Below, piece after piece: positions 54-16,690 of a stretch of DNA of 16,690 nucleotides. Source of the DNA: Oligoflexales bacterium (GTDB lineage Bacteria; Bdellovibrionota_B; Oligoflexia; Oligoflexales; Bog-1112); assembly GCA_045105515.1 (NCBI GenBank), contig JBGCDR010000173.1:1-16690 (forward strand), in the 5' to 3' direction. Made by a program: the position numbers and the translations under genes. The notes below the pieces were generated by a model that was not told the origin of the DNA, did not search any database, and saw only the letters and a list, made by a program, of their open reading frames with translations. The first letter of the stretch is position 1; each line of letters opens with the position of its first letter.

Positions 54-88
54 TAGGAGATTTTTAAGGTCGTCGCCTATGGCTCCGT

Positions 89-133
89 GGTGGGTCAGTT
101 TTACATGACTGGGTGGGTCAAATTGGACATGAC
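89..133 (+). repeat. Two imperfect direct repeats GGTGGGTCAGTTTTACATGAC / GGTGGGTCAAATTGGACATGAC (IS21 transposase-binding boxes)
   Basis: Directly visible at 89-109 and 112-133. Confidence 0.85.
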
Positions 134-369
134 CGAGCAACCAGAGAGTTTTCACCTAGAAAGTGTGCATCCCGGAGTCACTAAAGTGATAATACTCAAA
201 ATCAATGACTCAGAATCATTTGTTTAAAACCTAAACAATGTGATGATAAATATGCTTTAGAACTCTAGAAAACCACTTGCGCTATATAAAATAATATGAA
301 AAAAGTTTTCAGCATCTGAGATGAACGGAAATATGTAATTGTCTATCTTTTACCCAGATTGGAGTACCC

Positions 370-876
370 ATGAAACTTGGAAAAATAATTTCAGCTGGTC
401 TTGTATCCTTGGCGATGACTACTGCTGCAATGGCCCAGAATTATCTTCAATTAACAATCATGAATGGTCACAACTTAAAAAAAATGGATAGCAAAGGCAG
501 TGATCCTTATGTTGAGTGGGAAGCTGGAGAACAAAAAGGAACGTCTCATGCGATCTGGATGAAAAAAGGCACAGCAGCTGAATGGAATTATATTGATGCT
601 ATTGAAATAGATAATAGTTTTGAAGAAATTGATTTTGAAGTTAAGGAAAAAGATGGAGGTATAAACATATTTAAGCTAGCTAATAAAGGGAAGACAAGAA
701 AATATGGCAGTGCAAAATTGCGCTTAAGTGATATTGAACCTGATACAGATATTAAAATCGAAATCAATGGAAAAAATTCGTTTGGAGACAATAATAAGCA
801 AGCCTATATTACGGTAAGGTTTACTGAAATTACCACAGATCAATTTATTAATATTCTTAAACAACGCAAGAGTTGA
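370..876 (+). CDS. Secreted single C2-domain protein, 168 aa
   Basis: GGAG RBS at 361-364. Signal peptide MKLGKIISAGLVSLAMTTAAMA. C2 consensus elements in order: LQLTIMNGHNLKKMD, SDPYV, EWN, IDFEVKEKD, YGSAKLRLSDI. Confidence 0.85.
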   Translation: MKLGKIISAGLVSLAMTTAAMAQNYLQLTIMNGHNLKKMDSKGSDPYVEWEAGEQKGTSHAIWMKKGTAAEWNYIDAIEIDNSFEEIDFEVKEKDGGINIFKLANKGKTRKYGSAKLRLSDIEPDTDIKIEINGKNSFGDNNKQAYITVRFTEITTDQFINILKQRKS

Positions 877-943
877 TTAAGTTACTTATTTTTTTATGTA
901 AATCGCTCATGATTTTTTCGACTCAGACACTTAATAGTGCATT

Positions 944-972
944 AAAGAGATCATTAGCTATCTCTTTTTTTT
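944..972 (+). terminator. Possible intrinsic terminator after the C2 gene
   Basis: AAAGAGAT (944-951) / ATCTCTTT (960-967) stem, 8-nt loop, T tract to 972. The stem is AT-rich and weak. Confidence 0.5.
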
Positions 973-1389
973 ATATATACTTCTTTAGGCAGTTAGTTAG
1001 AGAATCAAAAAAATTTTTCTAAGTTAAATCCTTTTAAATCTCTGATTATTAGCCCTTCCTTCTTACCAAGAATTTGTCCCACTTCCCTAAGTACTTAAAA
1101 TATATAAACATCTTGTATGTGGTAGATTGAAGCTCAACCCTATTGGAGGGATTGGAAAGTGTAATCTTTTAATATTACAAGATATTTGAGATTTTATGAA
1201 ATTGTGAACAGTAAAATGTCAATTCTACCCAAAAAGAACCGCCTCTGATTCTAACAATTCCGACAAGTATTGTGTATTTAGAAACAATTAACATTAACAT
1301 AGTCCAACCAATTTAAAGCCTTAGGCTAAATCGATCACAAGATTTTAAGAGAAGTGATTTTATTTGGGAATATAGGCGAGGAGTACAAA

Positions 1390-3645
1390 ATGAAAAATTC
1401 AAGAAATGTTATAGGTATTTGGGTGGTGATGATAATCACAGCCTGTGGATTTAGCAAACAAAAGGATGCTGTGAAATCTGATAATGCTAAAACTGCATCT
1501 CAAGAAGACGGGTTCGATTTAGCAGAAAGTACTTTTAAACCAATGGGTGATGGTACTACCCTGAATTCATCGACCAATAGTTTGGCTTGCTCTAACAATA
1601 GCGATGATGGAATCGAAAGTCGGAGCAGTTATAATCTTACTGGCAAGTCTGTAGAATTCAAAATTACAATTGATAGAAGTACTCCCGGTAATAAACAAGT
1701 TTTCAAAATTAAGAGTCCACAAAGTGCTCTTGAATTATATACCTTCGAATACGGTTCACTAGATCAATTGAAGGCTAAAGTTGGTTCTAGTATTGCTCAT
1801 AGAAATTATCCTGGTGATACTATGCATTTAAAAGTCGACTTCACGTCAACTACTGCATCAGTTAAATCATTTGAAGGTGGTCGTTGGATCAACTTTGCAA
1901 GTATGAGATTTTCTGGCTCAAACAGTGTTAAAATCCAATATCTATGTGGAAGCGGTTTAGGTTCAACTTTTAAAGATCTTAATGCAGCTGGTGTTCCACA
2001 AGATTTAGCGTTAAGTGGTGGAACTTCTGGTGGAACTTCTGGTGGAACTTCTGGTGGAACTTCTGGTGGAACTTCTGGTGGAACTTCTGGTGGAACTTCT
2101 GGAGGAACCTCTGGAGGAACCTCTGGAGGAACTTCTGGAGGTGGTTCTGGAGGCAGTTCTGGTGGATCTTCGAGTGATATGGTTCTTACGGGTAGCGGAA
2201 GCAATTTGTCTTCTAGTACTAATAGCTTAACCTGTCCTGCTAGCGGTGACAATTCAGGAGCCCAGGGTGCAAGTACTTTCAACTTTAACGGGAAGAATGT
2301 AGAAATAAATCTTAGTTATGCTGCCGGTGCAAACCACGCACAAAAAATTACTATCCAAGGTTTAGAAAACGTCGGAATACGGATTTTCAAGTGGGGTAGT
2401 ACCTATCAAGCAAAAGCTTTCAAAAATGATATTGACCTTGTACACACAAATCTAACAGGTGCTTCTAACACCTTTAAGATTTCTCACTCTAACGGGATTG
2501 TACGTTGGTACGCAAATGGTGTTGAGTATGGTAATACACTTTTTTCAGAAACCAGCGACATGAAGATAAAATTAGAATGTGGGACTACAAGTGGTACTTT
2601 TGCTAATCTTAATCTCAGTGGCTCAAACCAAAACTTAGATGTTGCTGGAGCTGGTTCTGGTGGAACTTCTGGAGGTGGTTCTGGTGGAACTTCTGGTGGA
2701 ACTTCTGGAGGTGGTTTTGGTGGAACTTCTGGAGGTGGTTCTGGTGGAAATTGGGTTGAAACCTTTGTTGATGAGTTTAACAGTGGTAGCACACCAATTA
2801 GACCTAGTACAAGCAATTGGAACCATGAGGTTAACTGCGATGGAGGTGGTAATCAGGAAGATCAGTGTTATGTGGATAACGCAGCGAATACCTATGTTTC
2901 AGAAGGAACTTTGAAAATTAAGGCAAAATATGCACCTGGATCCCCTAATGGAAAAAACTATACTTCTGGTAGGTTAACGACCGCAGGTAAGTTTGACCAA
3001 AAATACGGAAGATTCTGCGCAAGAATCAAGCTCCCAGCGGGTAAACGGGTATGGCCAGCATTTTGGATGTTGGCTCATAATAATAATTGGCCGTTTACTG
3101 GAGAGATCGATATTATGGAGGCAATTCACCCACCTTCAAATCCAAGTGTTAATACTGAAGTTCATGGTACCCTTCACTACGGTGCGCAATGGCCAGCAAA
3201 TGTGAATAAAGGAGCACATATTGATATACCTAATGCAAGTGCAAACTTTAATGACTACTGTGTTGAGTGGGAAGAAGGCGAAATCCGTTGGTTTATTAAC
3301 GATGACCATTATGCCACGCAAAAGAAATGGTATTACCAATATCCCGGTGCACCGGTTGTAGGTGGAACTCCAGCACCTTTTGACAATGAATTTTTTATAA
3401 TTTTGAATGTTGCTGTAGGTGGATCCTGGCCTGACAATGTTCCTTCAAATGAGCCATTAGTGACAACTTCAACAACTATGGAAGTTGATTGGGTGAAGGT
3501 TTATGAGTGTGCTAAAAACCCAAGTAACGGTAAAGGTTGCAGTACAACAGGAACTGCAAATATTATTGAAGGATGTGTCCATCCTAACGAGGCAAACATT
3601 CCAGATAAGCCAAATGCTAATAGATGTGTTGGATGGGGAATGTGA
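1390..3645 (+). CDS. Lipoprotein glycoside hydrolase family 16 (laminarinase/beta-1,3-glucanase type) with two N-terminal repeat domains, 751 aa
   Basis: ATG 1390 follows GAGGAG (1378-1383), so it is preferred over GTG 1354. Lipobox ITA-C. C-terminal GH16 domain (~2752-3520) has DEF, GGGNQE, YTSGRL, WPAFWML, catalytic EIDIME (3103-3120), GTLHYG, PFDNEFFIILNVAVGG and MEVDWVKVY. Confidence 0.93.
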   Translation: MKNSRNVIGIWVVMIITACGFSKQKDAVKSDNAKTASQEDGFDLAESTFKPMGDGTTLNSSTNSLACSNNSDDGIESRSSYNLTGKSVEFKITIDRSTPGNKQVFKIKSPQSALELYTFEYGSLDQLKAKVGSSIAHRNYPGDTMHLKVDFTSTTASVKSFEGGRWINFASMRFSGSNSVKIQYLCGSGLGSTFKDLNAAGVPQDLALSGGTSGGTSGGTSGGTSGGTSGGTSGGTSGGTSGGTSGGTSGGGSGGSSGGSSSDMVLTGSGSNLSSSTNSLTCPASGDNSGAQGASTFNFNGKNVEINLSYAAGANHAQKITIQGLENVGIRIFKWGSTYQAKAFKNDIDLVHTNLTGASNTFKISHSNGIVRWYANGVEYGNTLFSETSDMKIKLECGTTSGTFANLNLSGSNQNLDVAGAGSGGTSGGGSGGTSGGTSGGGFGGTSGGGSGGNWVETFVDEFNSGSTPIRPSTSNWNHEVNCDGGGNQEDQCYVDNAANTYVSEGTLKIKAKYAPGSPNGKNYTSGRLTTAGKFDQKYGRFCARIKLPAGKRVWPAFWMLAHNNNWPFTGEIDIMEAIHPPSNPSVNTEVHGTLHYGAQWPANVNKGAHIDIPNASANFNDYCVEWEEGEIRWFINDDHYATQKKWYYQYPGAPVVGGTPAPFDNEFFIILNVAVGGSWPDNVPSNEPLVTTSTTMEVDWVKVYECAKNPSNGKGCSTTGTANIIEGCVHPNEANIPDKPNANRCVGWGM
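2017..2172 (+). repeat. 12-bp tandem repeat (GGTGGAACTTCT x7 perfect, then 6 variants) encoding linker (GGTS)10-GGGS-GGSS-GGSS
   Basis: Perfect units at 2017-2100, degenerate units at 2101-2172. Confidence 0.97.
2647..2748 (+). repeat. Second 12-bp tandem array (about 8.5 units) encoding a GGTS/GGGS linker
   Basis: Mixed GGTGGAACTTCT and GGAGGTGGTTCT units, directly visible. Confidence 0.95.
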
Positions 3646-3674
3646 TAAGATCTAAATCTTAAGATTTTATGTTA

Positions 3675-3702
3675 GGAGGGTTGGATGACCCTCCATTTTT
3701 AT
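3675..3702 (+). terminator. Rho-independent terminator of the GH16 gene
   Basis: GGAGGGT (3675-3681) / ACCCTCC (3688-3694) stem with a 6-nt loop, followed by ATTTTTAT, 30 nt after the stop. Confidence 0.8.
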
Positions 3703-4026
3703 ACCCATTTTCTCGCTCGTTAGGGTCGACTAGTATTCTTTACTAACCTTATGCAGCAAATAGGAAACGTTATTTAGTTTTAGGGTGACTTGTTCAGAAG
3801 CTTCAAAAACTTTTGACAAAGCATAAAGCATAAAACTATCCCAAATCTGAAAAAAATTTTTAAGAATCTTTCGAAATCATTGACTGTTAAAGCTTACCTC
3901 TGATTTATGGCTCTTCACCCAAATTAAAAACTTATCCACAGATTTTCCAGATATATTCTCTTGGAAGGAAAGAGTAGGGAGGTTCCGGCAACTCAAATGA
4001 ATAAAAAAATAAGCTCGTTTGTATTG

Positions 4027-5802
4027 TCAGAATCCTAATAATTCTTCTAAAAAATCTTGAAATTCGCCATCAACGGGTCCCTCGTTTGTGCTCATTGGCA
4101 GAGGGATTTCGGACTCAAGCTCTTCTTCGAAGCTACCATCAGTTTTAAGTAGAATAACTTTATCAGAATCAGGAAATTTTAACCTAACTTCGTAAGGGGA
4201 TATTTCTTTGCTATAGAAATCAATGGATTCTAAATTAAAGGGCAAATTCCATCGCAAGATATCAGATTCTTTTACTCCAAGGTGAGATATATTTTCACCG
4301 ACTTGACCAAGGAGACCAATTGTTCTTGGATTGAGCTGGGATGAATCAGTGTCATCAGGCAATATTTTTACCCTAATATACTTAGCACTTATCTCATTGT
4401 TACTACTTGGACGTGTAGCTCGACCCAATCTCTGTACTAGGCGTCTTGGCTTTTTTATATATATTCCAAAGTCAATAATAACCTTTACTGAGTGTAGGTC
4501 AAAACCTTCATCCAATACTCCACATGATATCATTATATTAATATTGCTATTTTCTGATTTGAATGTATTCAGATTTTTATTTTTTTCATGGAATTTCATA
4601 TTCCCATGAACTGTTAAGCTACTCATCCCGATAGCATCAAAAATCTCCTTCAAATTGTCAGCATGATCTTGGGTATTGGTAAAAACCATTATTTTGTTAT
4701 TAGATGAATTATCATTTAAAAAAATATTTTTGGCTATTTGTGCAACAGTAGAAGAAATTCCCGAAGTTTGAGAAAGAAGGTTATCAAAAACCTCCAATTG
4801 CTCTTTTGTCAAATCTTTGCCATCTGTTTTTAGTGATTTTCGAAGAAAATCTAGATTTTGGTGATAAGAAAAATCTATATCCATGAATTGGACACCTGAA
4901 ATCGCTTGTATTTTAATAGATTCGTGTAACTTCAAAGAACTAACTATTTCTAAAGGTAAATTTTCATAATCTGAAAGACTAGCTGAAAATCCAATTACAT
5001 GTTTTTCCCTTGGCATTCTGCTGATAATATTATTAATCGTATTCCCATTTGTTTTATGAGCTTCATCAAAAATAATTAGGGTGTTAGGATTATATGGATG
5101 AAAATAATCATCTTCATTATCCCAATTTTTAGTAGCTTGATAATCTAAATCCTTCAATTTTTGCCACTTGCTTGTGAGGCTTTGTATTGTTGTAACAGTA
5201 ATTGGTCTGATAGTTTTTTTTCTTTGATACCATTCGCCCACCTCTTCTTTAAGTGAGGGAAGCTTTTTGGAATACTTTTCAAATTTTTCTACAGTTTGTT
5301 CAATTAGTGAAACGGTAGGTACGGCAACAATTATTCTGTAGGGAGTGTCTGTGTTCTGAACCATAGAAATAAGCTTTGAAAAAATAGCTGTTTTTCCTGT
5401 CCCGGTAGGCATTTCGATAGCTATCTTTTTCTTGTTGTTCTTAAAAGACTGAAGAATATCGACCAATGTTTTTTTTTGATAATCTCTGAGAAATAGATCT
5501 TGATCTTTAGAATATTCATCAAATAGTTGGTCTAGTCGGCGAGGAAGTTCATTGCCCGTAAGTTTGTTTGAAAAAGTTATGGGGCGGCTAATTTTTCTTT
5601 TCTTTGCTACAGGAATCTGGGGCTGTTGATCTTTTACCTTATCGCTAGTTGATAATATTGGGGTTTGCGGAAGTTTGTGTTTAATAGAACTTTCTTCAGA
5701 AGCTAAAGCGACAGAAGGGAAGACCATTAAAAGTAAGTGCATTGAGAATATGTATATTAGAATAAGTCTATTCTTCTGAAATTTGTTCAAAATCAACCTC
5801 AT
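4027..5802 (-). CDS. Superfamily 2 DEAH-box helicase/ATPase (ResIII/SSL2-like plus helicase C domain) with signal-peptide-like N-terminus, about 591 aa
   Basis: LRDYQ (Q motif), MPTGTGKT (5412-5389), VPTVSLIEQ, TTIQSL, DEAH (5067-5056), GFSAS, IMVF, LDEGFD, QRLGRATR (4434-4411). The start is uncertain: the ORF is open from ATG 5883, but ATG 5802 puts a signal peptide at the N-terminus. Confidence 0.9.
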   Translation of the reverse strand: MRLILNKFQKNRLILIYIFSMHLLLMVFPSVALASEESSIKHKLPQTPILSTSDKVKDQQPQIPVAKKRKISRPITFSNKLTGNELPRRLDQLFDEYSKDQDLFLRDYQKKTLVDILQSFKNNKKKIAIEMPTGTGKTAIFSKLISMVQNTDTPYRIIVAVPTVSLIEQTVEKFEKYSKKLPSLKEEVGEWYQRKKTIRPITVTTIQSLTSKWQKLKDLDYQATKNWDNEDDYFHPYNPNTLIIFDEAHKTNGNTINNIISRMPREKHVIGFSASLSDYENLPLEIVSSLKLHESIKIQAISGVQFMDIDFSYHQNLDFLRKSLKTDGKDLTKEQLEVFDNLLSQTSGISSTVAQIAKNIFLNDNSSNNKIMVFTNTQDHADNLKEIFDAIGMSSLTVHGNMKFHEKNKNLNTFKSENSNINIMISCGVLDEGFDLHSVKVIIDFGIYIKKPRRLVQRLGRATRPSSNNEISAKYIRVKILPDDTDSSQLNPRTIGLLGQVGENISHLGVKESDILRWNLPFNLESIDFYSKEISPYEVRLKFPDSDKVILLKTDGSFEEELESEIPLPMSTNEGPVDGEFQDFLEELLGF

Positions 5803-5991
5803 ATTGAATTGGAAATTAGATTTCGATGCATAGCTATTGAGAATGCGGTCTATTAAATGCCTCGAAATGTCGCAATATTCCATATTTGCTTAAGCAATTC
5901 AATATATTTTTGAATTTTTGTTTGCGGTGAGAATTTCGTCAAAAAAGCTGGAGTTTGAGGTAGTGATTAATTGGATAGCTGAGACTTGACG

Positions 5992-6390
5992 CTATTGACT
6001 ATTCTCAATTTTAGAACGATCTTGGCCATGTTTTTTGGACTTTTTTCTAAGAGTGGAAACTGGCGTATGACAAATGCCTGAATCTGAAACTTTTTTGAAG
6101 CTCTCATTGTTTGAAGGAAATTCATCAAAGATAGGAGATGAAGAAAAAACTGGATGACCATGTAGAATCAGATTTGTACGCACCGATGATTGAATCAACT
6201 CTCTCTTCTTTTTGAGATTATTTATTAATTGATCTGTTTTTTGTTTTTCTAGTCTTTTTGAATCTAGTGATTTAAAGAATATCCTAATGATTTGAGTTGG
6301 CACTCTATTGGCACCAGCATCAGCAAAAGAGACCATAGAAGACCCAAATAATATAGCTAACGAAGCGAAAATTAGAATACGACTATTCAA
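5992..6390 (-). CDS. Small basic secreted hypothetical protein, 132 aa
   Basis: TTG start preceded by AAAGGA at normal spacing. Signal peptide MNSRILIFASLAILFGSSMVSFA. No recognisable domain. Confidence 0.7.
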   Translation of the reverse strand: MNSRILIFASLAILFGSSMVSFADAGANRVPTQIIRIFFKSLDSKRLEKQKTDQLINNLKKKRELIQSSVRTNLILHGHPVFSSSPIFDEFPSNNESFKKVSDSGICHTPVSTLRKKSKKHGQDRSKIENSQ

Positions 6391-6711
6391 GATTATTTCC
6401 TTTCAAAACTACTCAATTTGTTTCTAGGGGATTATAAGGGATATATATAAAAAAACAATAAGATAAATGTAGATACCTTAAATTCCAGAAAAAATAGTTT
6501 CTTTCTTCTTAGTTTTTGGTTTAAGATAAAGAATTATCCCTCATATGACAGTCCAAGTGTGAAGCAGTTTAGTACCTATAAAAAATAAATTTATAAAAAC
6601 AGGTGATTGTGGAATTTTATTGTAAAAACATGCTTATTATTTATACTCGCCCGTCTTTACACTGATTACTACAAAAATCGCATAATATGGATCAAAAATT
6701 CATTGTTTATT

Positions 6712-6741
6712 ATTAACCTTACTTTCATTAACCTTATTTTC
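6712..6741 (+). repeat. 15-bp tandem direct repeat ATTAACCTTACTTTC / ATTAACCTTATTTTC
   Basis: Copies at 6712-6726 and 6727-6741 with one mismatch, ending 15 nt before ATG 6757. Confidence 0.75.
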
Positions 6742-6756
6742 GATAGCAGGCTTAGT

Positions 6757-8436
6757 ATGACTTCAAGAATTGAGTCGAAAGAACACTCAAACATCTTATC
6801 AACGGACAGATTTTTAAGAACTATTCTTCTATTACTTTTTTGCTTTTTAGGAGCTTCTTCTCTGAGTTTCGCAAGCTCCCAAAACAATCATAATATTTGG
6901 GTCATTGGCGCACCTGGTGCAGGTAAGTCTGCATTGATTTCTGCAGCAATTACGAAGCTAGCTACCCCTGAGATTTATGCAAAGCTCGGAAATCTGAATC
7001 CTGACAGACTTGATGAATTTGGGGACCAAGTCAAAGAAGATCTACATTTTTTCGAAACCCTCGGGAAGGATATTTTATCACGGCCTAGCCTAGCAATTGG
7101 GAGTATTGAGGGCAATGGTTTGCATAATCCAAGCAACTTTTTATTCAAACTGAAATTTTCTCCTGTTGAAATAAGCACCGACACCAATTCTTCAATTTTG
7201 CATTCGACAAGATACTTAAACCAATATACGCATGCCCATTCAGGGTATAGTTTTATTGATACCCCGGGTATAAAGGCGGGCAATGCATACCAGGTCGCGA
7301 ATGCCATCAACTTTAGTGCGCTTACGAGTAAAGGTGGTCTTCAAGGGAGTGTTAATCAAATTGTAGCCTTATTGCAAGTGAACCAGCAGATGCTTGAGGA
7401 AATTCAGCAAGAAGCCACTACTTCCAGCAGCTGGATCGGATATGTTAGTCAAGGCCTTCGAAAAACTTTTTATTATAACGATTTTGAGCGTCAGATTGCT
7501 AATATCATTAAAGCAGCTGAGGGAACGGTTAACCTTAAACAACATGGGGCCCCGATTCAATTAGTGCTTGTACCTACCCAAGATATGTTGGAGGATCTTG
7601 AAGGTATTAAATCTTTCGAACTTATTAAATCTCTCAACGAAACCCTAAGCACAGATGCTTCGCTTAAAGTTAATCTGACAAACAAAATTTCTAACTTAGG
7701 CCTCCCCGTGGAAGGGAATCAGCTGATAACACAGCTTGTTAACTGGACAAGCATTTATGAGTCTTCATTAGATCTGCGCGACTCAAAGTTCAGCTATTAT
7801 GCTGAGAAAATAGACTCCATTCTTGATCAAATATTTAATAATAAAAAACTTGGGCTTAAATTTGAGCTTGGAAAAAAACTTGAAAAATCTCAAAAAGCTA
7901 TTGCATTCGCTGATGTAAACTTGGTGTCGGAACTGCCTGAAAAAACGAATAAATACTATCAAGAAGTTGATGATCTAAAGGTTTCACTAGATAATCTAGG
8001 GCAAAACATAAGACAAGATTTAGAAGAGGTTGAAGGACTGCAAGCGAGAGATATTAAACTTACTAAAGAAAAATCTCGTTTACCTGGCCTCTCGATTTTG
8101 AGCAGTTCAGATGTAAAAGATGAGAATTATTCAGGGCCAGTTAATTTTAGATTTGCAAGTGTTAGCCAATACAGGGATGCAGTGTATCATGCAGACTTCC
8201 TCTTTTTTGGTCGAAATTCAGAAGGACAGTTTGGCATATTTTTTGACTTAGACACCTTCCCTAGAAGCCTCACTGGAGATCTTCCTCCTATACCTAAAAA
8301 AATTGATATGAGTGTTAAAAGAATTGGACAGGCAGAAGCTTTGGTACATTCTTTCGAATTTGCTGATCCAAAAAATAACGCAAACAAAAAAACGGTTCAT
8401 TTTGAGCTTTTAAGTAAAGATATCAAATCAATCTGA
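6757..8436 (+). CDS. Signal-peptide P-loop GTPase/coiled-coil protein, N-terminal part (559 aa) of a probable larger gene 6757-11130
   Basis: ATG 6757 gives a signal-like segment RFLRTILLLLFCFLGASSLSFA. G1 GAPGAGKS (6907-6930), probable G2 Thr in HSTRY, G3 DTPG (7258-7269); G4 not clearly recognisable. Heptad-rich helix at ~7954-8082. Ends at TGA 8434-8436 with the same frame continuing. Confidence 0.75.
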   Translation: MTSRIESKEHSNILSTDRFLRTILLLLFCFLGASSLSFASSQNNHNIWVIGAPGAGKSALISAAITKLATPEIYAKLGNLNPDRLDEFGDQVKEDLHFFETLGKDILSRPSLAIGSIEGNGLHNPSNFLFKLKFSPVEISTDTNSSILHSTRYLNQYTHAHSGYSFIDTPGIKAGNAYQVANAINFSALTSKGGLQGSVNQIVALLQVNQQMLEEIQQEATTSSSWIGYVSQGLRKTFYYNDFERQIANIIKAAEGTVNLKQHGAPIQLVLVPTQDMLEDLEGIKSFELIKSLNETLSTDASLKVNLTNKISNLGLPVEGNQLITQLVNWTSIYESSLDLRDSKFSYYAEKIDSILDQIFNNKKLGLKFELGKKLEKSQKAIAFADVNLVSELPEKTNKYYQEVDDLKVSLDNLGQNIRQDLEEVEGLQARDIKLTKEKSRLPGLSILSSSDVKDENYSGPVNFRFASVSQYRDAVYHADFLFFGRNSEGQFGIFFDLDTFPRSLTGDLPPIPKKIDMSVKRIGQAEALVHSFEFADPKNNANKKTVHFELLSKDIKSI

Positions 8437-8448
8437 AAAACTGAATTA

Positions 8449-11130
8449 TTGAGCGGAATCCTTGCAGAAGATTTTAATGGTTACGTTTCGTTTCACGCTC
8501 GTGGTAATGGCCATGATTTGTACTCTTTTGGAACTCCAAGAGAATTTCCTGTGGATATATACTCTAAGCAAGACGGCGCAGAACTTGAATATAAAAGGTT
8601 AGATCCAAGCTCAGTTGAAAAAACGCTTTCGGATATTCTTCTTAAAAAAATGGCAGTCGAAGCAACTTTAGGGAACTTTGAAGAAAGCAAAGAAAGATTC
8701 GTGACTGTTTCGAGACAGAAGGATATTATTTTTTCTGACTATAACTCCTACGTTTCTAGTTTGAAGCGTGGTGGAGTTCCCAATGTTGATGCGTATCTTA
8801 AGGAACTAGCTAAAGAAAATGGTAGTATCAAGGAAGAGTTTGATCGCTTTTCAGAAGCCCCGATTGCAAACCAGCTAAATGCTAGTTTTGAAGATTTAAT
8901 TTCCCTTAGAAGTAAGCTAGAGAATAAGGTTGAGAGTTTAGATAAAAGATTTGATCCTGTCCTTCCGGATTCGAAAGCAAGTGGATTGGATACGATGGTC
9001 TTTAAGTCGCATGATGAAATGCATAGAAATTTACTCAGTGAGCGAATTAAGGAGGCAATCAGCTTGATATTTGATGCCTTTGAAGATGGGATTCTAAGTT
9101 CAAGAGTTGAAAATGGTGAATTCATTTATACATCTACTAGTGCGGAAGTTTTGGCTGCATTGGTAAACACCATTTTTCTCCCTCGCTATCAGGAAGGAGC
9201 TAAAATTGTCGCAACGGAAGGTGGATCGTCTGAGTTTAGAAATAGCAATAACTTTGAACTTCGTGAATCAAATGATGACCGTTGGCAGGCACCTATGGAC
9301 CAGAAAGACCTTTCAACGAATATTAATATTGCTGTCTTTGGTCCAAGAGGATCTGGAAAAACTACTTTTCTAAATACAGCTAATCACTTTGCGAGCACTC
9401 TTGATAAAGGGGTTGCTAAGGCTATTGATGAGGCCCATGGTATGGGGTACCCAGGCCTGCCTTTGTCAGCTTGGGCAAATAGGGGTTTTAATCATTCTTG
9501 GACCCATAGCTATTATGGAAACGATGAATTTACGGTTGGGAGTCTAAGAGCCCAGCTTCCTGCACTAGCCAGTGATTCCCTGGAATTTGTACGTCTATGC
9601 AAAGACCCCACTTGTTCTTCAGTCAATGTCCATGAGCATAAATATTTAAGACCTAATCCTGTACAGAAAGGCTCTACCGAGGCAAATGGAGAAGTTCTTG
9701 ATAGTATCAATACCGTAAAAGTAGGAATGATACCTCAATATCACTTCAAAGCCCTTGATGTACGAGGATTTATTCCTGATGACAATATTTTTAGTAAAAA
9801 AGGCTCTGTAAACTCCAACCCTCTTCTTCGAGCAATGGTCCAAAATAAGGATTTTGAGTCCTTGGATGGTTTGGTACTTGTGTTGAATGCTCAAAAAATT
9901 CTGAACGATGACCATAGCTCGAGCTATAAACGTTCTACAGAAAATCAATTATTAGCCATCAACGAAATACGAACAAATTCTGATACAGGCAATGTTAGGC
10001 CTCTCCATGTGGTATTTACCCACTTTTTAGATTTGGTTAAAAACGGCGAAAATATAGAAAAATCTAGCTCAGATGGAGAGTCTGCTTATTTGGCCGAATT
10101 AAGGAATCAGCTACACGCCCATTTAAGAGAGTTGATGGGTACAGCCAAGGAAAACATAAATATCTATTTCATTGATCAGGAATATCTATGGTCAGATAGT
10201 AAATCTTTAAAAAACAAAAATCGTTTTATTCATTATAAAACTGCTGCTCATGAGGTAGTTCGCCTTTTCGAAAATGTAAACAAAAATGCATGGGAAATGG
10301 GTTTAGATGATTTTCGACAAAACTTTGCTGATGCATTGGAAGAGAAAAGAATTATGCTTAAATACTCAACTGGAAAACTTGATAGCACTATTTCTGCTTA
10401 TAGGAAATCTGAAAGAGATCAGGGAGATTTTTCTGTTGACGGAAATGTGATCAATCAAAAAGACAAAGAATATATAAAAGAAAAGCAGGCCGCAGCTCTT
10501 CAAATTGTTCAGGTGGGTTTAGATGATCAAAAAAACATCCAAATGCAAGAACGAGGTAGTGCCCCCATACATTATTTTTTACAGGAAGAAAATCCAGATC
10601 GGGTTTGGTGGAATCACCATAGAGGCCGGGAGCGCACTGCCGGGAGAGATAAATTAGTAGAGTTAGTTGTGGATCAAATAAAAGATCTTACCTCCAAAGG
10701 AGGAATCAATGGCTCTGATACAGGCAGGGATTTATTTGTTGTCAGAAGTCTCGGAAAACTTGGCAAACTCAAAGGACAGTATTGCTGGCATCAACCATAT
10801 AAAAGGTATGATATTACCGATTGTACATTGATCCATAAAGTTTTAGAAGGACTGGAAAATAACGCTCTCGTTAGCGATGATCTCAAGTTGGTAAGAGATA
10901 ATCACAAATCACCATTTGAGCAAGCTAAAGGGGTGGCATCAAAATACCGCGATAATCAAAAATGGAAGACAGCAGAATCAGTAGATGGGGGAGACCTTCA
11001 TATGGTGGCTGTTTTTGCCCGGAGTGTTGATAAGAAATCAAAAGAGGCAAAAATTGAACTAGTTTATATTGATATTAAGAAAGCTTCAGCACTGAGTGGA
11101 GAAGTTGATATCAGTAAGTGGCTTTTCTAA
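8449..11130 (+). CDS. P-loop GTPase/coiled-coil protein, probable C-terminal part of the gene beginning at 6757
   Basis: Same frame as the upstream ORF; the nominal TTG start has no Shine-Dalgarno. G1 GPRGSGKT (9340-9363), G3 DVRG (9757-9768), strand LDGLVLVLNA, G4-like VVFTHFLD (~10009-10032). Helical segments flank the domain. Confidence 0.75.
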   Translation: MSGILAEDFNGYVSFHARGNGHDLYSFGTPREFPVDIYSKQDGAELEYKRLDPSSVEKTLSDILLKKMAVEATLGNFEESKERFVTVSRQKDIIFSDYNSYVSSLKRGGVPNVDAYLKELAKENGSIKEEFDRFSEAPIANQLNASFEDLISLRSKLENKVESLDKRFDPVLPDSKASGLDTMVFKSHDEMHRNLLSERIKEAISLIFDAFEDGILSSRVENGEFIYTSTSAEVLAALVNTIFLPRYQEGAKIVATEGGSSEFRNSNNFELRESNDDRWQAPMDQKDLSTNINIAVFGPRGSGKTTFLNTANHFASTLDKGVAKAIDEAHGMGYPGLPLSAWANRGFNHSWTHSYYGNDEFTVGSLRAQLPALASDSLEFVRLCKDPTCSSVNVHEHKYLRPNPVQKGSTEANGEVLDSINTVKVGMIPQYHFKALDVRGFIPDDNIFSKKGSVNSNPLLRAMVQNKDFESLDGLVLVLNAQKILNDDHSSSYKRSTENQLLAINEIRTNSDTGNVRPLHVVFTHFLDLVKNGENIEKSSSDGESAYLAELRNQLHAHLRELMGTAKENINIYFIDQEYLWSDSKSLKNKNRFIHYKTAAHEVVRLFENVNKNAWEMGLDDFRQNFADALEEKRIMLKYSTGKLDSTISAYRKSERDQGDFSVDGNVINQKDKEYIKEKQAAALQIVQVGLDDQKNIQMQERGSAPIHYFLQEENPDRVWWNHHRGRERTAGRDKLVELVVDQIKDLTSKGGINGSDTGRDLFVVRSLGKLGKLKGQYCWHQPYKRYDITDCTLIHKVLEGLENNALVSDDLKLVRDNHKSPFEQAKGVASKYRDNQKWKTAESVDGGDLHMVAVFARSVDKKSKEAKIELVYIDIKKASALSGEVDISKWLF

Positions 11131-11165
11131 ATTGACGATTATTTAAGGCTTAAAAGGACTGAAAA

Positions 11166-13805
11166 ATGACAGCATACTTTTCTTATATTTGTTTTATATT
11201 AACCATTCTAGTTGGGGAGTTTGTGGCCCCATCTCATACTCCTTTGCATGCTAGTCCCGGCAAGCCAACAAAGGGCTCGACACCTAAAAGGCACGTTCCT
11301 AGTAATAGTGCAAAGCCCAGCTTCAAAGCTGACTTCTGGCACGGAACTGAAACCCACCGTAATGGGCCAACTCGAGCAAGATGGGAAGCTGAGCTACATC
11401 TTGACACAAAGAAGGCAAAAGTTTGGAGGGCAAATGAGACAGGAGAGAGCACTCGGATTTTGATTTTGCCACTTTATGCAGCTCACCTTAGGCAAATCCT
11501 CCAGATCTTCTTTTTAAAAGCTGGGTTTCCTGAGCTTGATGAAAAATTATTGAGTACTAGCGAAAAGCTTGACTTTATCGTAAGAGTAGCTCAGGAAGTG
11601 CATGTCTCTCATCAGGGTAAAGCTTGGGCGCATAAAGAAACTGAATGGAATGAAGTAGAAGATGATGGCCTATTTGGGGGGGAAATATCTCTCTACAATG
11701 AAGAGTTTATCGATTTCGCTTATGCCGTTCTAGGTAAGGATAAGCTAGAAGAACGGCTTAGGAATAGGTCCTTAGATGGAGAAGAGGAAAATATAGATTC
11801 AAGGGTTGAAGAAGAAGTAAAATCAGCCCAGGAGACGGCTCCATCTACTTTTGGGATGATCTCATCGTGGTTTTCTTCAGTGCCAAACAATACCGATTCC
11901 AAGACCGAGCAAATTGCTAAGAAATCACAGGCTGAACTGAAGCAAGATATATGCGAAGATGAAGAAGATTTTTTTGCTGATTCTAGTACTAATCTAGAGC
12001 AGATTGATGAGTCAGGAAGTGAATATGACCTGATGATAGATCGCCTCTTTGAGTCGGCAAAACAAAGGTTTTTCCTCAAATATATTGATGAGTTTAAGTT
12101 TGAAGATCAAATAGGTCTAAATTCAGAAAAACGACTTGGGATAGTTGACCAAGGAAGAGAGTCTTTTTTTGGAGAAGCCCCTCCTAAAAAAGTTGGAGAG
12201 ATGGGGCAGGCTAATGCTTACAACCCAAATTTTGACCTGATATCCCGGTTTGTCATTGATTTTTTAAAGATAGAGAAAGATTTTGGGAATGATGTACTTC
12301 CAATAACAGGTGAAAACGATGATGGTTTTCCTTCGGATGATTGGCAATTAGATTGGCCAGACTCTGCTGCAATCCGTTTTAAAATTGATGGCAAATTATA
12401 TGATGTATATTTTCCAACTCGCTGGGCAAGTGTGGAAGCCGATCGCAGTGGACTTCTAGCTTGTGATTCTTGCAATGAAGTAAACGAGCTTAGCAATTGT
12501 AAGGATGATAAAGTTCGCCACAACCATCCAAACGGGTTTACTTATATTGAGCTTTCTAAAAAAGAGGAATTACCTCTTAATAATTATCCACGAAAACCAG
12601 CTAAGGGATATCCTGGAATCAACTATGGATATTTTCCCTTGCAAACGCCGAGAATTTTAAGAGCTTTTCAAGATCGCCCCCTAAACGCAGTTTGGAGTAT
12701 TTCCACTTCTGGAGGATTAGCTGGTGCTGAAGGTGCAAGGATGCTAGGTGGAGATAGCAAAGATCTGACCTCGAGGTTTGAGAGTCTTGAACAGGCGAAG
12801 AGCCGTTATGAGTACCCAGCAAAGTTTGAGCTTATGTGGGAAGGAAGAGCTAGTTTTTACCCCCCAGAAAGTAACGTCTTTGACTTAAGCTTATATCAAA
12901 ATTCAGATTGTGAAGACGATAAACACTATAAAAGCCCAAATCAGTGCTTAGCTGCAGTAGATTACCGAAGCATTATGGATATTTCAGACTTTGCTAAACT
13001 TCTCAAAGATAGTGGTAAAAGCAACTTCTTTTGGCAAGATCAGGAAGGGGCCTGCAGATGTAGAGATTGGAGAGCAGCATGCTATAAAAAAGGCAGAAGT
13101 CGATGGGCAGTCTCTATAGGGGAACCTCTGGATAAATCTTTAAAATTAAGTACTCCAGGGTTGCAGTTAGATAAGTACCCCGAAAAAGAAATTTATGCTC
13201 AAAAAGGATTACTTGAAGAGAACATTCGAACTATAAGTGATGCTTTACATATTTCTAAATATCTGCGCAAGGTCCCAATTTCAGGATTGAAAGAGGTTAT
13301 CCCTAAACCAGAATTAAGGATTTTGCGCGCTGGAGAAAGAGTTAAGATCATCTCAAAACATGACATGGAATCATTAGAAATAAAAATAGAATTTCAAAGT
13401 GAATATTTTGAAAATTTCTTCTTTGATCTTAATGTGAATTCTTCGAGTAAAAAGAATGGAGTCACCGAGCTTGAAATGATAGTGCCTCCGGATCTGGCTA
13501 TATTAGTCAAGCCAAAGTACAAAGGCATACAAAATGTACCCACTAAGTTTATTGCTATAAGACCCTTCAATGAAAGGGAAAAAGTCAAAAAAGAGCTCTT
13601 TGATGTAGAACTAAATTTTACAGTTCCGTTAAAATCTTCAGACACCATGCAATTTGAACTCAATAGGGTCAATTCCCGAGAATATGATTTTAATGTATTA
13701 AACTCAGATGAAACAAAGGAAAAAGTCAAGAAAACCATGAAACCGGAATTGACTAGTACAAAACCCCAAAGGAAAAATTTAGAACTAGATATTAAAGTTT
13801 TATAA
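11166..13805 (+). CDS. Large hypothetical protein, 879 aa, probably exported, with acidic segments and Cys/His clusters
   Basis: AAAGGA RBS at ~11153-11158. Hydrophobic N-terminus ending ...PLHA|S. Starts 35 nt after the previous stop. No family recognised. Confidence 0.8.
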   Translation: MTAYFSYICFILTILVGEFVAPSHTPLHASPGKPTKGSTPKRHVPSNSAKPSFKADFWHGTETHRNGPTRARWEAELHLDTKKAKVWRANETGESTRILILPLYAAHLRQILQIFFLKAGFPELDEKLLSTSEKLDFIVRVAQEVHVSHQGKAWAHKETEWNEVEDDGLFGGEISLYNEEFIDFAYAVLGKDKLEERLRNRSLDGEEENIDSRVEEEVKSAQETAPSTFGMISSWFSSVPNNTDSKTEQIAKKSQAELKQDICEDEEDFFADSSTNLEQIDESGSEYDLMIDRLFESAKQRFFLKYIDEFKFEDQIGLNSEKRLGIVDQGRESFFGEAPPKKVGEMGQANAYNPNFDLISRFVIDFLKIEKDFGNDVLPITGENDDGFPSDDWQLDWPDSAAIRFKIDGKLYDVYFPTRWASVEADRSGLLACDSCNEVNELSNCKDDKVRHNHPNGFTYIELSKKEELPLNNYPRKPAKGYPGINYGYFPLQTPRILRAFQDRPLNAVWSISTSGGLAGAEGARMLGGDSKDLTSRFESLEQAKSRYEYPAKFELMWEGRASFYPPESNVFDLSLYQNSDCEDDKHYKSPNQCLAAVDYRSIMDISDFAKLLKDSGKSNFFWQDQEGACRCRDWRAACYKKGRSRWAVSIGEPLDKSLKLSTPGLQLDKYPEKEIYAQKGLLEENIRTISDALHISKYLRKVPISGLKEVIPKPELRILRAGERVKIISKHDMESLEIKIEFQSEYFENFFFDLNVNSSSKKNGVTELEMIVPPDLAILVKPKYKGIQNVPTKFIAIRPFNEREKVKKELFDVELNFTVPLKSSDTMQFELNRVNSREYDFNVLNSDETKEKVKKTMKPELTSTKPQRKNLELDIKVL

Positions 13806-13829
13806 TTAAAAATATTTGAAGTAGGCATC

Positions 13830-16559
13830 ATGAAAACCCAAAGATTGAGATTTTTTATATTTATTTTTTTTCTAACATGGATCTTCTGTGGGTTTAAATC
13901 ACCTGCCTATGCTAGTTACATTTTGACTGATGACTTTCTAAGAAATCAATCCCATGGGGTCTTTCAGCTTACTTCTAACTCCAATTTACACAAGACTGCT
14001 CTTAAGAGCGGTAATTTTATCGACTCCAACCTGCCTGCAGGCTATCATTTAAGCCTTGTCGGTGGGTCAAGCTTGAAGCCATCTACTGCCAATGAGTTGG
14101 GTATCAATGAACTACATATTGATTCAAACGGAGAGCTGGAGATAAAAGGCGGCGAAAGTGAGATTTGTTCGCGCGCCCTAGATATTAGTGCCCAAAAAAT
14201 AGTTTTGAGTGGATCTCTTAACCTCAATTCCGGAAAAATCGAGGCTGAAACTCTAGTTATTAACAAGCAAGCCCACATAAACTTTGGTTTTGGGGTTACC
14301 TTGAACATTAAGAATCTAGAAGTACTTGGGGAGCTTAATGTTCCTAGTGTCCAGCGGCTTGAAGGTCTCCACCTCGGTAAAAATGCGTATCTTAGGGCTA
14401 GGGAGATACAGCTAACAAGTAGCAACCCTGAAAATTGGTTTTCCAGTGATGAACTTTCTGAACTCATTTGCGATGATCTTCATGTTACTAGTCATAACTT
14501 TTCTTCAAAAGGCATAATCAAAACAAAGCGTGCTCATCTTGATCTATACCAAGGAAACTTTCATCGTGGTTCACAGACGGAAGCGAAGCAACTCTTCTTG
14601 TCTTCAGGTAGCGAAGTTTCCTTTAAACACAGTCAAATTATCGCTGATAAGCTTGCATTTCTGGGCAAAAAACTGAAGATTTCCTCCTTTTCTAGGGTTG
14701 AGTCCAAAGAAAGTCTGAGCAGTGTTTTGGAAAGCCTTGACCTTGAACAAACGACTTTAGATTCGGCAGTTATGGAACTCAACACCCAGTACTTCAAAGT
14801 AGGAGGAGATGTTAGTTTTATAAGCAACGTTTTCTTCTTAGAGGGAAGGAGAAGTATAAGTCTTTTTGGCCATCGTAACAAAATTAAGGCAAATGCAGTC
14901 TACGTGAATTCTTACCATGGGGAAGTCTATAGTAGCTTTGAATTTCAACTTAATAATGAATACACGGACGAGCAGGTTAAAAGCGCGGTGTTGTCTTACC
15001 CTAAACTTTTGACTATCTCTAGAAGCATCGATGAAAACGAAGAAGAAGATCAACGACCAAGCATTTTCTACTTACGTTCAGGCAAAGGTGATGTGGGTCT
15101 TGACTCCTACAATGTGCCTTATAAAATAGTGGCTCTTGATGCTCAAGAGTCAGTTCACCTTGCCACAAAACTTAGACTTAAGCCAGATTGTTTTCTTGGA
15201 ATTAAAGCTTCAGATTTTGAGCTTAGAAGGAATTTAAATCTGAGTAAGCTTAATATTCAAACATCTAATATTCTTAACTTATCCAGTACAGGAAATCTTA
15301 ATGTAGATTCCATGTCCCTTCTCGGACGAATAGTTACCGTTGATGGAAATATTGAAACTTATGATTTGGAGATGTTTGGGCGGGATAAGCTTGTAATAGG
15401 TCCTTCTGCAATTAATGCAGTGAAGGCGGCATTAGGTTCCAGCCGATATTTAAACCTTCGGCAGCTTTCGCAGCTAAAAATCTTAGAACAGCTCGAAATT
15501 AAAAATGATGAACAACGGCTTGTTCTTGGAGGAGCTATCACCGCTTCGATTGTGGATATTTTAGCCCAAGATATACAAAGCTCAAAAAAATCCCGGATCG
15601 AGAAAGCTCAGCGATTTAGTTCTGAGAGCATCGATTCTACGTACTTATCTGGAAAAATTGGTCTTAATGAAGGAGGAGAGATTTACCTAAAGGGTTCTAG
15701 TATAGGTATGGAAAATGCTCATGTCTATGCCCCTTCTTCGGCAAATAATGAGTCATCTGCAAGAATGTATGTAGAAGCTAGCAAGGGCTCTGTAACCCTG
15801 AAAGATACCGTGCTGGATGGTATTAAACAACTTGATTTTAAGGCTAAAGAAGACATTGTCTTAGCTAAGAGTACGAGAATTAATGATGCTCAAAAGGTCA
15901 ACTTTTCCGCTCGAAATATCGATCTTGATGGAGTAATTAAAGCAGATCAGGTTACTGCAACAGCGAGAAAAATTAATTATCGAGGAAAAATAATCGATGC
16001 TAATGAGGTTGATTTTTTTGCTGATGAATCCATCGATATCGCGACTTATTCTCTATTGCAAGTCACTCATAGATTGCGAATTCATGGGGATGCAAAAGTA
16101 GCCATTTCGGGAAGTGTTCTTACAAAAATACTGGATGTATGCTCCGCTGAATTTAATCTTTTACGTTCGGGTGATCTAACAGTTGATCAAAAAGCAATTA
16201 TTTACACTTATGCATGGACTAAGATGCAGGGCTTAGTTAATTTTGCAAAGGCCGAAGCGCAAATAAAAGCTGGTGAATCAGTAGAGATCGATAATACTTT
16301 TCTATATAAAAATCTAGGAATATCAGGTTTAGAGGATACCCAACTTGAAAGCCTATTACTCGGAAAGAATGCCGTTTTACTAGAAAATTCAGAGTTGAAA
16401 AAAATTGGTTTGAGGGGAGGCTCTAATTGGTTGGAAAAACGTTTAAAACAGCACAATCTTTCGTTCTTAGATTTGAACAAACCAGAAGACTTAGCAACCA
16501 TCATTGAAAAAGAAGTTTCTAGTCCTGAGTGGCGCGAGATGGCGCTACCACTTTCTTGA
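13830..16559 (+). CDS. Secreted beta-helix (filamentous-haemagglutinin-like) exoprotein, 909 aa, possibly truncated
   Basis: Signal peptide MKTQRLRFFIFIFFLTWIFCGFKSPAYA. Long run of short alternating-hydrophobic strands with G/N/S turns (LNLNSGKIEAETLVIN, IDLDGVIKADQVTATARKINYRGKI). Starts 24 nt after the previous stop. The fold is inferred from pattern only. Confidence 0.7.
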   Translation: MKTQRLRFFIFIFFLTWIFCGFKSPAYASYILTDDFLRNQSHGVFQLTSNSNLHKTALKSGNFIDSNLPAGYHLSLVGGSSLKPSTANELGINELHIDSNGELEIKGGESEICSRALDISAQKIVLSGSLNLNSGKIEAETLVINKQAHINFGFGVTLNIKNLEVLGELNVPSVQRLEGLHLGKNAYLRAREIQLTSSNPENWFSSDELSELICDDLHVTSHNFSSKGIIKTKRAHLDLYQGNFHRGSQTEAKQLFLSSGSEVSFKHSQIIADKLAFLGKKLKISSFSRVESKESLSSVLESLDLEQTTLDSAVMELNTQYFKVGGDVSFISNVFFLEGRRSISLFGHRNKIKANAVYVNSYHGEVYSSFEFQLNNEYTDEQVKSAVLSYPKLLTISRSIDENEEEDQRPSIFYLRSGKGDVGLDSYNVPYKIVALDAQESVHLATKLRLKPDCFLGIKASDFELRRNLNLSKLNIQTSNILNLSSTGNLNVDSMSLLGRIVTVDGNIETYDLEMFGRDKLVIGPSAINAVKAALGSSRYLNLRQLSQLKILEQLEIKNDEQRLVLGGAITASIVDILAQDIQSSKKSRIEKAQRFSSESIDSTYLSGKIGLNEGGEIYLKGSSIGMENAHVYAPSSANNESSARMYVEASKGSVTLKDTVLDGIKQLDFKAKEDIVLAKSTRINDAQKVNFSARNIDLDGVIKADQVTATARKINYRGKIIDANEVDFFADESIDIATYSLLQVTHRLRIHGDAKVAISGSVLTKILDVCSAEFNLLRSGDLTVDQKAIIYTYAWTKMQGLVNFAKAEAQIKAGESVEIDNTFLYKNLGISGLEDTQLESLLLGKNAVLLENSELKKIGLRGGSNWLEKRLKQHNLSFLDLNKPEDLATIIEKEVSSPEWREMALPLS

Positions 16560-16690
16560 ATTCAATAAGAAAATGCAAAAATAATCTTGCCGTCCAGAAT
16601 TCAAAACAAATTTGTGCTTGAAAAAAATATTTTCATCAAAATTCCCCTTCCTAAGATGTGTTTAAGAGCTAATAAGAGAAAAATCTTAAG

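What the first reader, a model, noticed from the sequence alone, without database searches (positions are those of the whole stretch)
6757..16690. Candidate undescribed operon: exported tandem GTPase + 879-aa Cys/His protein + beta-helix exoprotein
Seen: three very large co-oriented genes separated by only 35 and 24 nt, no obvious terminator between them, each starting with a signal-peptide-like segment. Known: P-loop GTPases are normally cytoplasmic, and FHA/CdiA-type beta-helices are surface filaments that can deliver cargo to other cells. Inference: a multi-component exported apparatus or effector set, such as a beta-helix delivery stalk plus GTPase and partner acting on membranes of a target cell. 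I do not recognise this gene combination, and no TpsB/CdiB transporter is visible in the window.
Basis: partly seen in the sequence, partly recalled or inferred. Interest (0 to 1): 0.8.

Follow-up and report, generated by a model that had tools for sequence, protein, structure and literature searches.

The report
GTPase-linked giant polymorphic toxin locus
These genes are a broken copy of a rare bacterial weapon locus in which a giant self-cleaving toxin with a swappable tip and its antidote gene travel with an unknown exported protein and exported GTPases instead of the usual outer-membrane transporter, which hints at an undescribed way of delivering toxins.

Summary
Real, conserved locus, but this copy is broken. 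Gene C is the first quarter of a ~3,900-aa Hint-domain polymorphic toxin: the intact orthologue is P0008, the probable remainder is on contig C421, and an immunity-like gene follows. An intact paralogous trio lies on C232/C94. Orphan gene B recurs in two other genomes of the family. It lies beside a signal-peptide GTPase at all 5 loci where that side is visible, and near a Hint toxin at 4 of 6 loci (the other two are cut by contig ends). In G014 two separate GTPase genes flank B, ahead of a stalk-Hint-HNH nuclease and Imm50. No TpsB or TPS domain was found in this 91%-complete genome; both searches ring in relatives. B is not Cys/His-rich. Best reading: a Sec-exported polymorphic toxin system whose GTPases and B are dedicated delivery partners, in the genomic place of CdiB, MafA or UmbA/B. 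How they act is inferred; binding is untested. Eight paper searches and five scan look-ups (by sequence, words, relatives) showed no description.

The parts
6757..8436 (+). Gene A, 5' piece (559 aa): signal-like N-terminus, GTPase domain 1 (G1 at 6907-6930), helical region, first part of a beta-rich domain; ends at a premature TGA
   Evidence: MMR_HSR1 E 1.8e-4; 59% identical to residues 16-552 of intact P0002
8434..8436 (+). In-frame TGA inside a segment that runs on without a break in 3 of 3 homologues
8437..11130 (+). Gene A, 3' piece (897 codons, first start TTG 8449, no signal peptide): coiled coil, GTPase domain 2 (G1 at 9340-9363; modelled core about 9283-10335), variable C-terminal region
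   Evidence: (60% identical to P0002 558-1446)
11166..13805 (+). Gene B, 879 aa, signal-like N-terminus, no known family; conserved core about residues 290-640; marker gene of the system
13830..16554 (+). Gene C, first 908 codons of a giant polymorphic toxin (signal-like N-terminus, beta-helix-type stalk); equals residues 1-906 of the 3933-aa PT-HINT protein P0008
16555..16690 (-). End of a high-copy IS30-like element (transposase 3' side) inserted in gene C; supplies C's apparent stop at 16557-16559 and ends the contig

Best explanation
The locus is a Sec-exported polymorphic toxin system with its own accessory genes, and the window holds a decayed copy. SHOWN (sequence): C is a 2,000-4,500-aa protein built as signal peptide, repeat stalk, helical pre-toxin segment, Hint domain, variable tip, followed by an immunity gene. 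B is linked to it. Two GTPase domains with export signals sit beside B, fused in one gene (window, C232, P0002, P0003) or as two genes (G014). FROM ESTABLISHED KNOWLEDGE: Hint cleaves off the tip, the tip poisons a target cell (an HNH nuclease in G014), and the small gene protects the producer. INFERRED: the three proteins cross the inner membrane by Sec and leave by the type II system (two GspD genes) rather than through a TpsB pore. B is the adaptor that couples the stalk to the GTPase pair. The variable end of A (a ricin-B lectin in the C232 copy) helps pick the target surface. The GTPase pair, which keeps its catalytic motifs but should find no GTP in the periplasm, switches on when it meets a cytoplasm at the target and helps the tip across the membrane. 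Odds: toxin system with genetically dedicated B and GTPases about 0.8; window copy non-functional about 0.85; a delivery complex acting at the target about 0.4-0.5; GTP-triggered entry in particular about 0.3.
For: Same order A-B-C on C232: 1558 aa, 587 aa, more than 2951 aa, running into C94 with Hint, tip and a 134-aa gene 7 nt behind. Orthologues P0002, P0006 and P0008 all come from one source with the same longest contig of 37,833 bases. G014:C3: GTPase, B homologue, GTPase, 1956-aa toxin with stalk similarity to C (E 1e-12), PT-HINT and Tox-HNH-EHHH, then Imm50. G007: toxin end, Imm42, B on C124; B then GTPase on C91 and C12. Stalks are related while tips differ. The C421 tip and its DUF7674 neighbour recur as a pair in Kitasatospora (in an ALF/Hint toxin locus) and Paracaedimonas. 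G1, G2 and G3 are kept in both G domains in 4 of 4 sequences. The model core of domain 2 matches TRAFAC GTPases: GIMAP4 Z 11.9, rmsd 3.9, 164 aligned; Toc33 Z 11.1; G-alpha Z 12.3, tied. TpsB and TPS families are not found in G000 but ring at about 1e-76 and 1e-45 in G119, G125, G129. Two GspD above cut-off. Ricin-B tail on the C232 GTPase (E 1.2e-4, below the cut-off).
Against: All genomes with the module that have a known kinship belong to one family, so the loci are not independent; B was found in only 3 of 131 genomes of the phylum. The G014 and G007 GTPases match A's domains mainly over the P-loop, and the A profile missed them (1 of 131), so their orthology to A is not shown. The G007 pieces lie on three contigs. 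The same genome has other signal-peptide Hint toxins (C130, C52, C350, C152), but only two copies of A and B were detected, so Sec toxins here do not all need them. G4 of domain 1 is non-canonical. The lectin tail is in 1 of 4 A proteins. The genome is 91% complete, so a TpsB could be unassembled. B's fold is unknown (model pLDDT 35).
Confidence: 0.6

Rival explanations
1. B, with the GTPases, is a dedicated export route on the producer's side. B oligomerises in the outer membrane like MafA, or the GTPases drive vesicle release from the periplasm like LeoABC. They do not travel to the target.
For: B takes the genomic place of the missing TpsB. MafA is a precedent for a lineage-specific toxin exporter (PMC7738311, abstract). 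LeoA is a periplasmic GTPase tied to vesicle export (PMC4159319, passages).
Against: B shows no later transmembrane stretch and no Omp85 or other porin family hit. [quoted passage not shown] LeoA ranks 44th of 50 in the fold search (Z 10.3). The lectin tail on the C232 GTPase suggests an outward-facing role.
Confidence: 0.22
2. A and B are separate host-directed effectors (GIMAP-type GTPases as in amoeba symbionts) that merely share an island with an antibacterial toxin.
For: GIMAP-type GTPase effectors are described for endosymbionts (PMC3482391, passages). GIMAPs are among the top fold matches. About 30% of long ORFs in this genome look exported, including 23 of 153 P-loop proteins and the helicase next door.
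Against: The B-GTPase-toxin link survives gene-order change and fusion or fission in three genomes. No B was seen away from the module at 6 of 6 loci, within contig limits.
Confidence: 0.12
3. Ordinary contact-dependent inhibition (CdiA/CdiB) whose TpsB gene is unassembled or too diverged; A and B are bystanders.
For: Stalk with a 20-residue period, Hint, tip and immunity gene match the CdiA plan. The genome is incomplete.
Against: No TPS domain in C, its paralogue or the genome, and no TpsB in G000 or in 15 of 15 other genomes of its family, while true TpsB-TpsA pairs ring strongly in three genomes of the class.
Confidence: 0.04

Closest known systems
Polymorphic toxin systems, Sec/T2SS class with HINT peptidase (Zhang et al. 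2012, PMC3482391; passages read)
   Same: Signal peptide, central repeats, HINT, variable tip, downstream immunity gene; the G014 pair Tox-EHHH + Imm50 is listed in that paper's table.
   Different: That paper gives no signature neighbour genes for the Sec class and says filamentous haemagglutinin repeats occur only in T5SS toxins. Here a beta-helix-type stalk lacks TPS/TpsB and has two fixed neighbours, B and exported GTPases.
CdiA/CdiB contact-dependent inhibition (two-partner secretion)
   Same: Giant repeat stalk, pre-toxin segment, optional Hint, tip and immunity gene.
   Different: No TPS domain and no TpsB found; accessory genes are unrelated to CdiB.
Umbrella toxins UmbA/UmbB/UmbC of Streptomyces (PMC11062931; passages read)
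   Same: Three exported partners: an enzyme-fold protein with a variable lectin end, an orphan adaptor, and a repeat toxin with variable tip. The C421 tip family also occurs in an ALF/Hint locus.
   Different: No ALF repeats, no trypsin fold, Sec-like rather than Tat signals, Gram-negative host; the GTPases keep catalytic motifs whereas UmbA lacks its triad; no complex shown here.
MafA/MafB of Neisseria (PMC7738311, abstract; PMC3482391, passages)
   Same: Lineage-specific accessory gene upstream of a signal-peptide polymorphic toxin.
   Different: B shows no Maf family hit; MafB is small and has no stalk; no GTPase in Maf loci.
Bacterial dynamin-like pairs: LeoABC (PMC4159319, passages), DynA
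   Same: Paired or fused GTPase domains with helical regions; LeoA is extracytoplasmic and linked to toxin release.
   Different: Only a weak Dynamin_N hit (E 0.0026); fold matches do not favour dynamins; clear signal-like N-termini, which Leo proteins lack; the two halves of A are not a detectable whole-module duplication.

Membership tests
Polymorphic toxin system | Multidomain exported protein with conserved N-terminal/central part and variable C-terminal tip | tested here: met
   Related stalks, unrelated tips in P0008, C421, C94 and G014; in the window only the N-terminal quarter is present
Polymorphic toxin system | Processing peptidase before the tip | tested here: met
   PT-HINT above cut-off in C421 and G014, listed for P0008; C94 copy below cut-off but with the terminal Hint motifs
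Polymorphic toxin system | Small immunity gene directly downstream | tested here: met
   Imm50 (G014), Imm42 (G007), DUF7674 paired with its tip in two other taxa (one just under cut-off), unnamed 134-aa gene on C94
Polymorphic toxin system | Tip is toxic and neutralised by the neighbour | not testable with these tools
   needs expression test; G014 tip is a named HNH nuclease family
CdiA/CdiB (two-partner secretion) | N-terminal TPS domain (PF05860) | tested here: not met
   no hit in C or its paralogue or in G000; the same search rings in 3 of 5 control handles
CdiA/CdiB (two-partner secretion) | Cognate TpsB gene beside the toxin | tested here: not met
   upstream neighbours are B or a GTPase in the window, C232 and G014; PF03865 not found in G000 (91% complete)
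CdiA/CdiB (two-partner secretion) | Filamentous haemagglutinin beta-helix repeats | tested here: inconclusive
   Pfam hit far below cut-off; 20-residue period z 4-5 in two downstream segments, weak in four others; not folded
Umbrella toxin (UmbABC) | ALF repeats in the toxin | tested here: not met
   no PF03752 hit in C, its paralogue, C421 or the G014 toxin; the scan finds it in the Kitasatospora control
Umbrella toxin (UmbABC) | Trypsin-fold UmbA with lectin end | tested here: not met
   partner is a P-loop GTPase; lectin end in 1 of 4
Umbrella toxin (UmbABC) | Partners assemble into one particle | not tested
TRAFAC-class GTPase | G1, G2 Thr and G3 DxxG in order | tested here: met
   both domains, 4 of 4 sequences (motif names recalled)
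TRAFAC-class GTPase | G4 guanine-specificity motif | tested here: inconclusive
   domain 2 has T-H-x-x-acidic (AIG1/Toc34-like, recalled); domain 1 has no recognisable G4
TRAFAC-class GTPase | Ras-like fold | tested here: met
   domain 2 model core, Z 11-12 to GIMAP, G-alpha and EF-Tu, tied; domain 1 not folded
Bacterial dynamin-like protein | Dynamin G domain followed by neck, trunk and paddle | tested here: inconclusive
   weak Dynamin_N hit; helical regions modelled at low confidence; no hydrophobic paddle by hydropathy

The most novel reading that the evidence does not exclude
A new delivery route for polymorphic toxins in a predatory/symbiotic lineage: a secreted particle in which an orphan adaptor joins a giant beta-helix toxin to a pair of exported GIMAP/Toc34-like GTPases that are silent outside cells and use the target's own GTP to drive the toxin tip across its membrane.
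Probability: 0.3. Interest if true: 0.9.

Novelty: new variant of a known kind. Interest (0 to 1): 0.72.

Why it matters
How polymorphic toxins leave the producer and enter the target is known for few routes. A beta-helix stalk toxin without a two-partner transporter runs against a published generalisation (PMC3482391). GTPases with export signals pose a plain puzzle, since the periplasm lacks nucleotides. The intact loci (C232/C94 and the compact G014 locus with a named nuclease and immunity pair) make both questions testable. B gives a sequence marker for finding more members. The window copy also records a very recent, IS-driven loss of one of two such weapons.

Tried and rejected
Alternative genetic code or selenocysteine at 8434: rejected; TGA is a common stop here, no matching tRNA is among the tRNAs listed, and the orthologue has an ordinary residue there. 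Two separate genes A1 and A2 by design: unlikely, as A2 has no signal peptide and the stop cuts a segment continuous in 3 of 3 homologues, though G014 shows that split GTPase genes exist in the family. Pairing C173 with C421 by target-site duplication: no consistent duplication length found; the pairing rests on orthology and IS orientation. The missing residues 907-1039 were not found in the assembly. A as a head-to-tail duplication: only the P-loops align. B: no Pfam, NCBIfam, PDB-sequence or Atlas match; model pLDDT 35; best fold Z 5.4, uninformative. More loci: genome contigs, metagenome contigs and viral contigs gave none; only 4 representatives for A2 among 1.84 billion; the A profile search returned only P0002. 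Tips: no solved-structure match worth keeping; the C94 tip had no plasmid match and one weak match in G014; passages of 10.1101/2021.10.19.465003 did not identify the C421 tip. RecA scan for taxonomy: uninformative. No RNA holder listed. Complex prediction of B with C: tool not available, no result. A phylum search with the C alignment was not possible (too wide). Repeat search in the locus: nothing beyond chance. Paper searches returned 0; others listed nothing on this module by title or abstract start. Supplements of the papers were not read; the locus tables of PMC3482391 could bear on novelty.

Full report
1. What is in the window. The window is the whole contig C173 of a 6.3-Mb, 461-contig assembly, 91% complete. 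Earlier scan notes call the genome Bdellovibrionota/Oligoflexales (not tested by me, one search was uninformative). The runs that hold the stretch are labelled plant metagenome, one study. The three frames, the gaps of 35 and 24 nt and the lack of terminator-like sites in the gaps are real. But gene A carries an in-frame TGA at 8434 in a code-11 genome, with no variant in contigs of 3 of 3 runs (not independent of the assembly). Gene C ends in a repeated element that starts at 16555: 72 exact copies of this end, 77 of a second end, and a depth roughly 180-200 times that of the locus (depth is only a rough guide). One end encodes the last residues of an IS30 transposase model (E 0.026), the other an HTH_38 start (E 2e-10), so I read them as the two ends of one IS30-like element. 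B is not enriched in Cys or His.

2. Intact copies. tblastn finds all three genes again, in order, on C232: A' 1558 aa with two P-loops and a weak ricin-B tail, B' 587 aa, C' open at the contig end. C' overlaps C94 by 141 identical bases and ends there with Hint, a 215-aa tip and a 134-aa gene, about 4,520 aa in all. Large protein searches gave closer relatives: P0002 (1446 aa, uninterrupted; 59% and 60% identical to the two pieces of A), P0006 (47% to B) and P0008 (3933 aa, PT-HINT; 57% to C). All three list the same source and a longest contig of 37,833 bases, so they are probably neighbours; I could not read that DNA. A fourth tandem GTPase, P0003, has unknown context.

3. The rest of gene C. 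Window C equals P0008 1-906. Contig C421 begins with the other IS end and then matches P0008 from residue 1040 at 56%, the same level as the window part and twice that of the paralogue (28%). It carries Hint at 2468-2687 of its frame, then a frameshift, a tip, and a DUF7674 gene. Residues 907-1039 were not found. The tip has relatives on 5 of 72,556 plasmids. Of the three I fetched, two have a DUF7674 gene directly behind (E 7e-6, just under cut-off, and 2.5e-16); the third record has no annotation there and I did not scan it. One lies in an ALF/Hint toxin locus. So the window's copy has at least three lesions: a stop in A, an IS in C, and a frameshift before the tip. Equal conservation on both sides of the stop suggests that the damage is recent (inference).

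4. Wider conservation. The A2 protein matched 0 of 60 relatives and the A profile 1 of 131 genomes of the phylum, G000 itself. The B profile gave one weak outside hit in G007 that aligns over B's best-conserved motif (hhalign probability 95%). With that protein as query, 3 of 131 genomes match: G000, G007 and G014, all of one family. G014:C3 reads: GTPase (393 aa), B homologue (680 aa), GTPase (395 aa), 1956-aa toxin, 131-aa gene. The toxin shares stalk sequence with P0008 and C421 (best stretches E 1e-12 and 3e-9) and ends in PT-HINT and Tox-HNH-EHHH; the small gene is Imm50. In G007, C124 has a Hint toxin end, Imm42 and B; C91 and C12 have B followed by a GTPase of 570 and 558 aa. Of 6 loci read as DNA, B adjoins a signal-peptide GTPase at 5 (the sixth is cut on that side) and lies within two genes of a Hint toxin at 4 (two are cut upstream). 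Kin are not independent, and the G014/G007 GTPases match A's domains mostly at the P-loop, so I claim the same kind of partner, not proven orthology.

5. The proteins. Signal-like N-termini are present in 10 of 10 A, B and C homologues tested (best 11-residue hydropathy 1.99-3.0) and in the four large G014 genes (1.8-2.9); this is a heuristic that 700 of 2345 long ORFs of G000 also pass. Both G domains keep G1, G2 and G3 in 4 of 4 sequences; G4 is atypical. The model of the 3' piece of A is poor overall (pLDDT 44), but its core matches TRAFAC GTPases, with GIMAP, G-alpha, EF-Tu and Toc33 tied; language-model neighbours are MMR_HSR1/AIG1 clusters, all under 0.9, a lead only. B has no family and no usable model. 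The stalk shows a 20-residue period in 2 of 6 C segments tested; it was not folded, so 'beta-helix' is an inference. Before the Hint lies a helical, partly hydrophobic segment that is shared with two other signal-peptide toxins of this genome (C130, C52).

6. Export route. PF03865 (TpsB) and PF05860 (TPS) find nothing in G000. The same searches find full-length TpsB in 3 of 131 genomes at about 1e-76, one more at 6e-14 and many short weak matches, none in the 15 other genomes of this family, and TPS in those same three. G000 has four Omp85 matches (not examined further) and two GspD above cut-off.

7. Mechanism and rivals. The toxin part follows established knowledge: Sec export, Hint cleavage, tip, immunity (PMC3482391, passages). 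That paper ties haemagglutinin-type repeats to T5SS only, so this locus needs another route, and the fixed neighbours are the obvious candidates. I favour a delivery complex by analogy with umbrella toxins (PMC11062931, passages): orphan adaptor, enzyme-fold partner with a variable lectin end, repeat toxin. Because the catalytic motifs are kept while the periplasm has no nucleotides (stated in PMC4159319, passages), I place the GTPase step at the target cell. This step is inference only. The main rival is a producer-side exporter like MafA (PMC7738311, abstract) or LeoABC; the second is independent host-directed GTPase effectors; ordinary CDI is unlikely.

8. Novelty. It works like a polymorphic toxin system and meets the sequence tests for that class; it fails those for CdiA/CdiB and for umbrella toxins. 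Eight paper searches and five scan look-ups by sequence, words and relatives showed no description of a GTPase-B-stalk toxin module; the library lacks most subscription papers, and supplements were not read. Verdict: new variant of a known kind, interest 0.72; the window itself holds a decayed copy, and work should use C232/C94 or G014.

Noticed in passing
window 4027-5883 (-): SF2 helicase (ResIII/DEAD/Helicase_C) with a signal-peptide-like hydrophobic stretch near its start, divergent from the locus; one of 23 of 153 P-loop ORFs in this genome that pass a loose export heuristic (the helicase itself was scored).
   Followed up: partly
window 370-876 and 1354-3645 (+): Signal-peptide C2-domain protein, and a lipoprotein-like GH16 glucanase with long GGTS repeats.
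   Followed up: no
G000 contig ends; window 1-141 and 16555-16690: Strong IS expansion: 16 clusters of 15-97 contig ends share repeat ends; both ends of the window are such repeats.
   Followed up: partly
L006 (C130) 2207-7513 (-); L007 (C52) 227-5353 (+): Two 86%-identical signal-peptide toxins: ricin-B, kinase-like domain, shared pre-Hint helical segment, PT-HINT, different HNH tips (WHH, SHH), SUKH immunity genes; both sit next to a primase-like gene.
   Followed up: partly
G000:C442 23875-28555 and C452 3684-7414: Two similar clusters of four to five small signal-peptide genes ending in a short signal-peptide Hint protein.
   Followed up: no
G000:C350 15110-17856: 763-codon frame with two PT-HINT matches in tandem, a tip and a small downstream gene.
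   Followed up: no
L128 (C231) 3746-7951; L129 (C328) 143-2830: 1402-aa signal-peptide protein with midasin/dynein-like AAA domains; 896-aa signal-peptide P-loop protein without Pfam match.
   Followed up: partly
G119:C1, G125:C1, G129:C130: Canonical TpsB next to TPS-domain frames of 5078, 5598 and at least 1282 codons in one genus of the same class.
   Followed up: no
L005 (C94) about 5650-5760: Sequence behind the immunity-like gene reads like a tRNA 3' fragment next to an integrase-type IS gene (pattern recalled; ARAGORN found no tRNA); possibly an island boundary.
   Followed up: no
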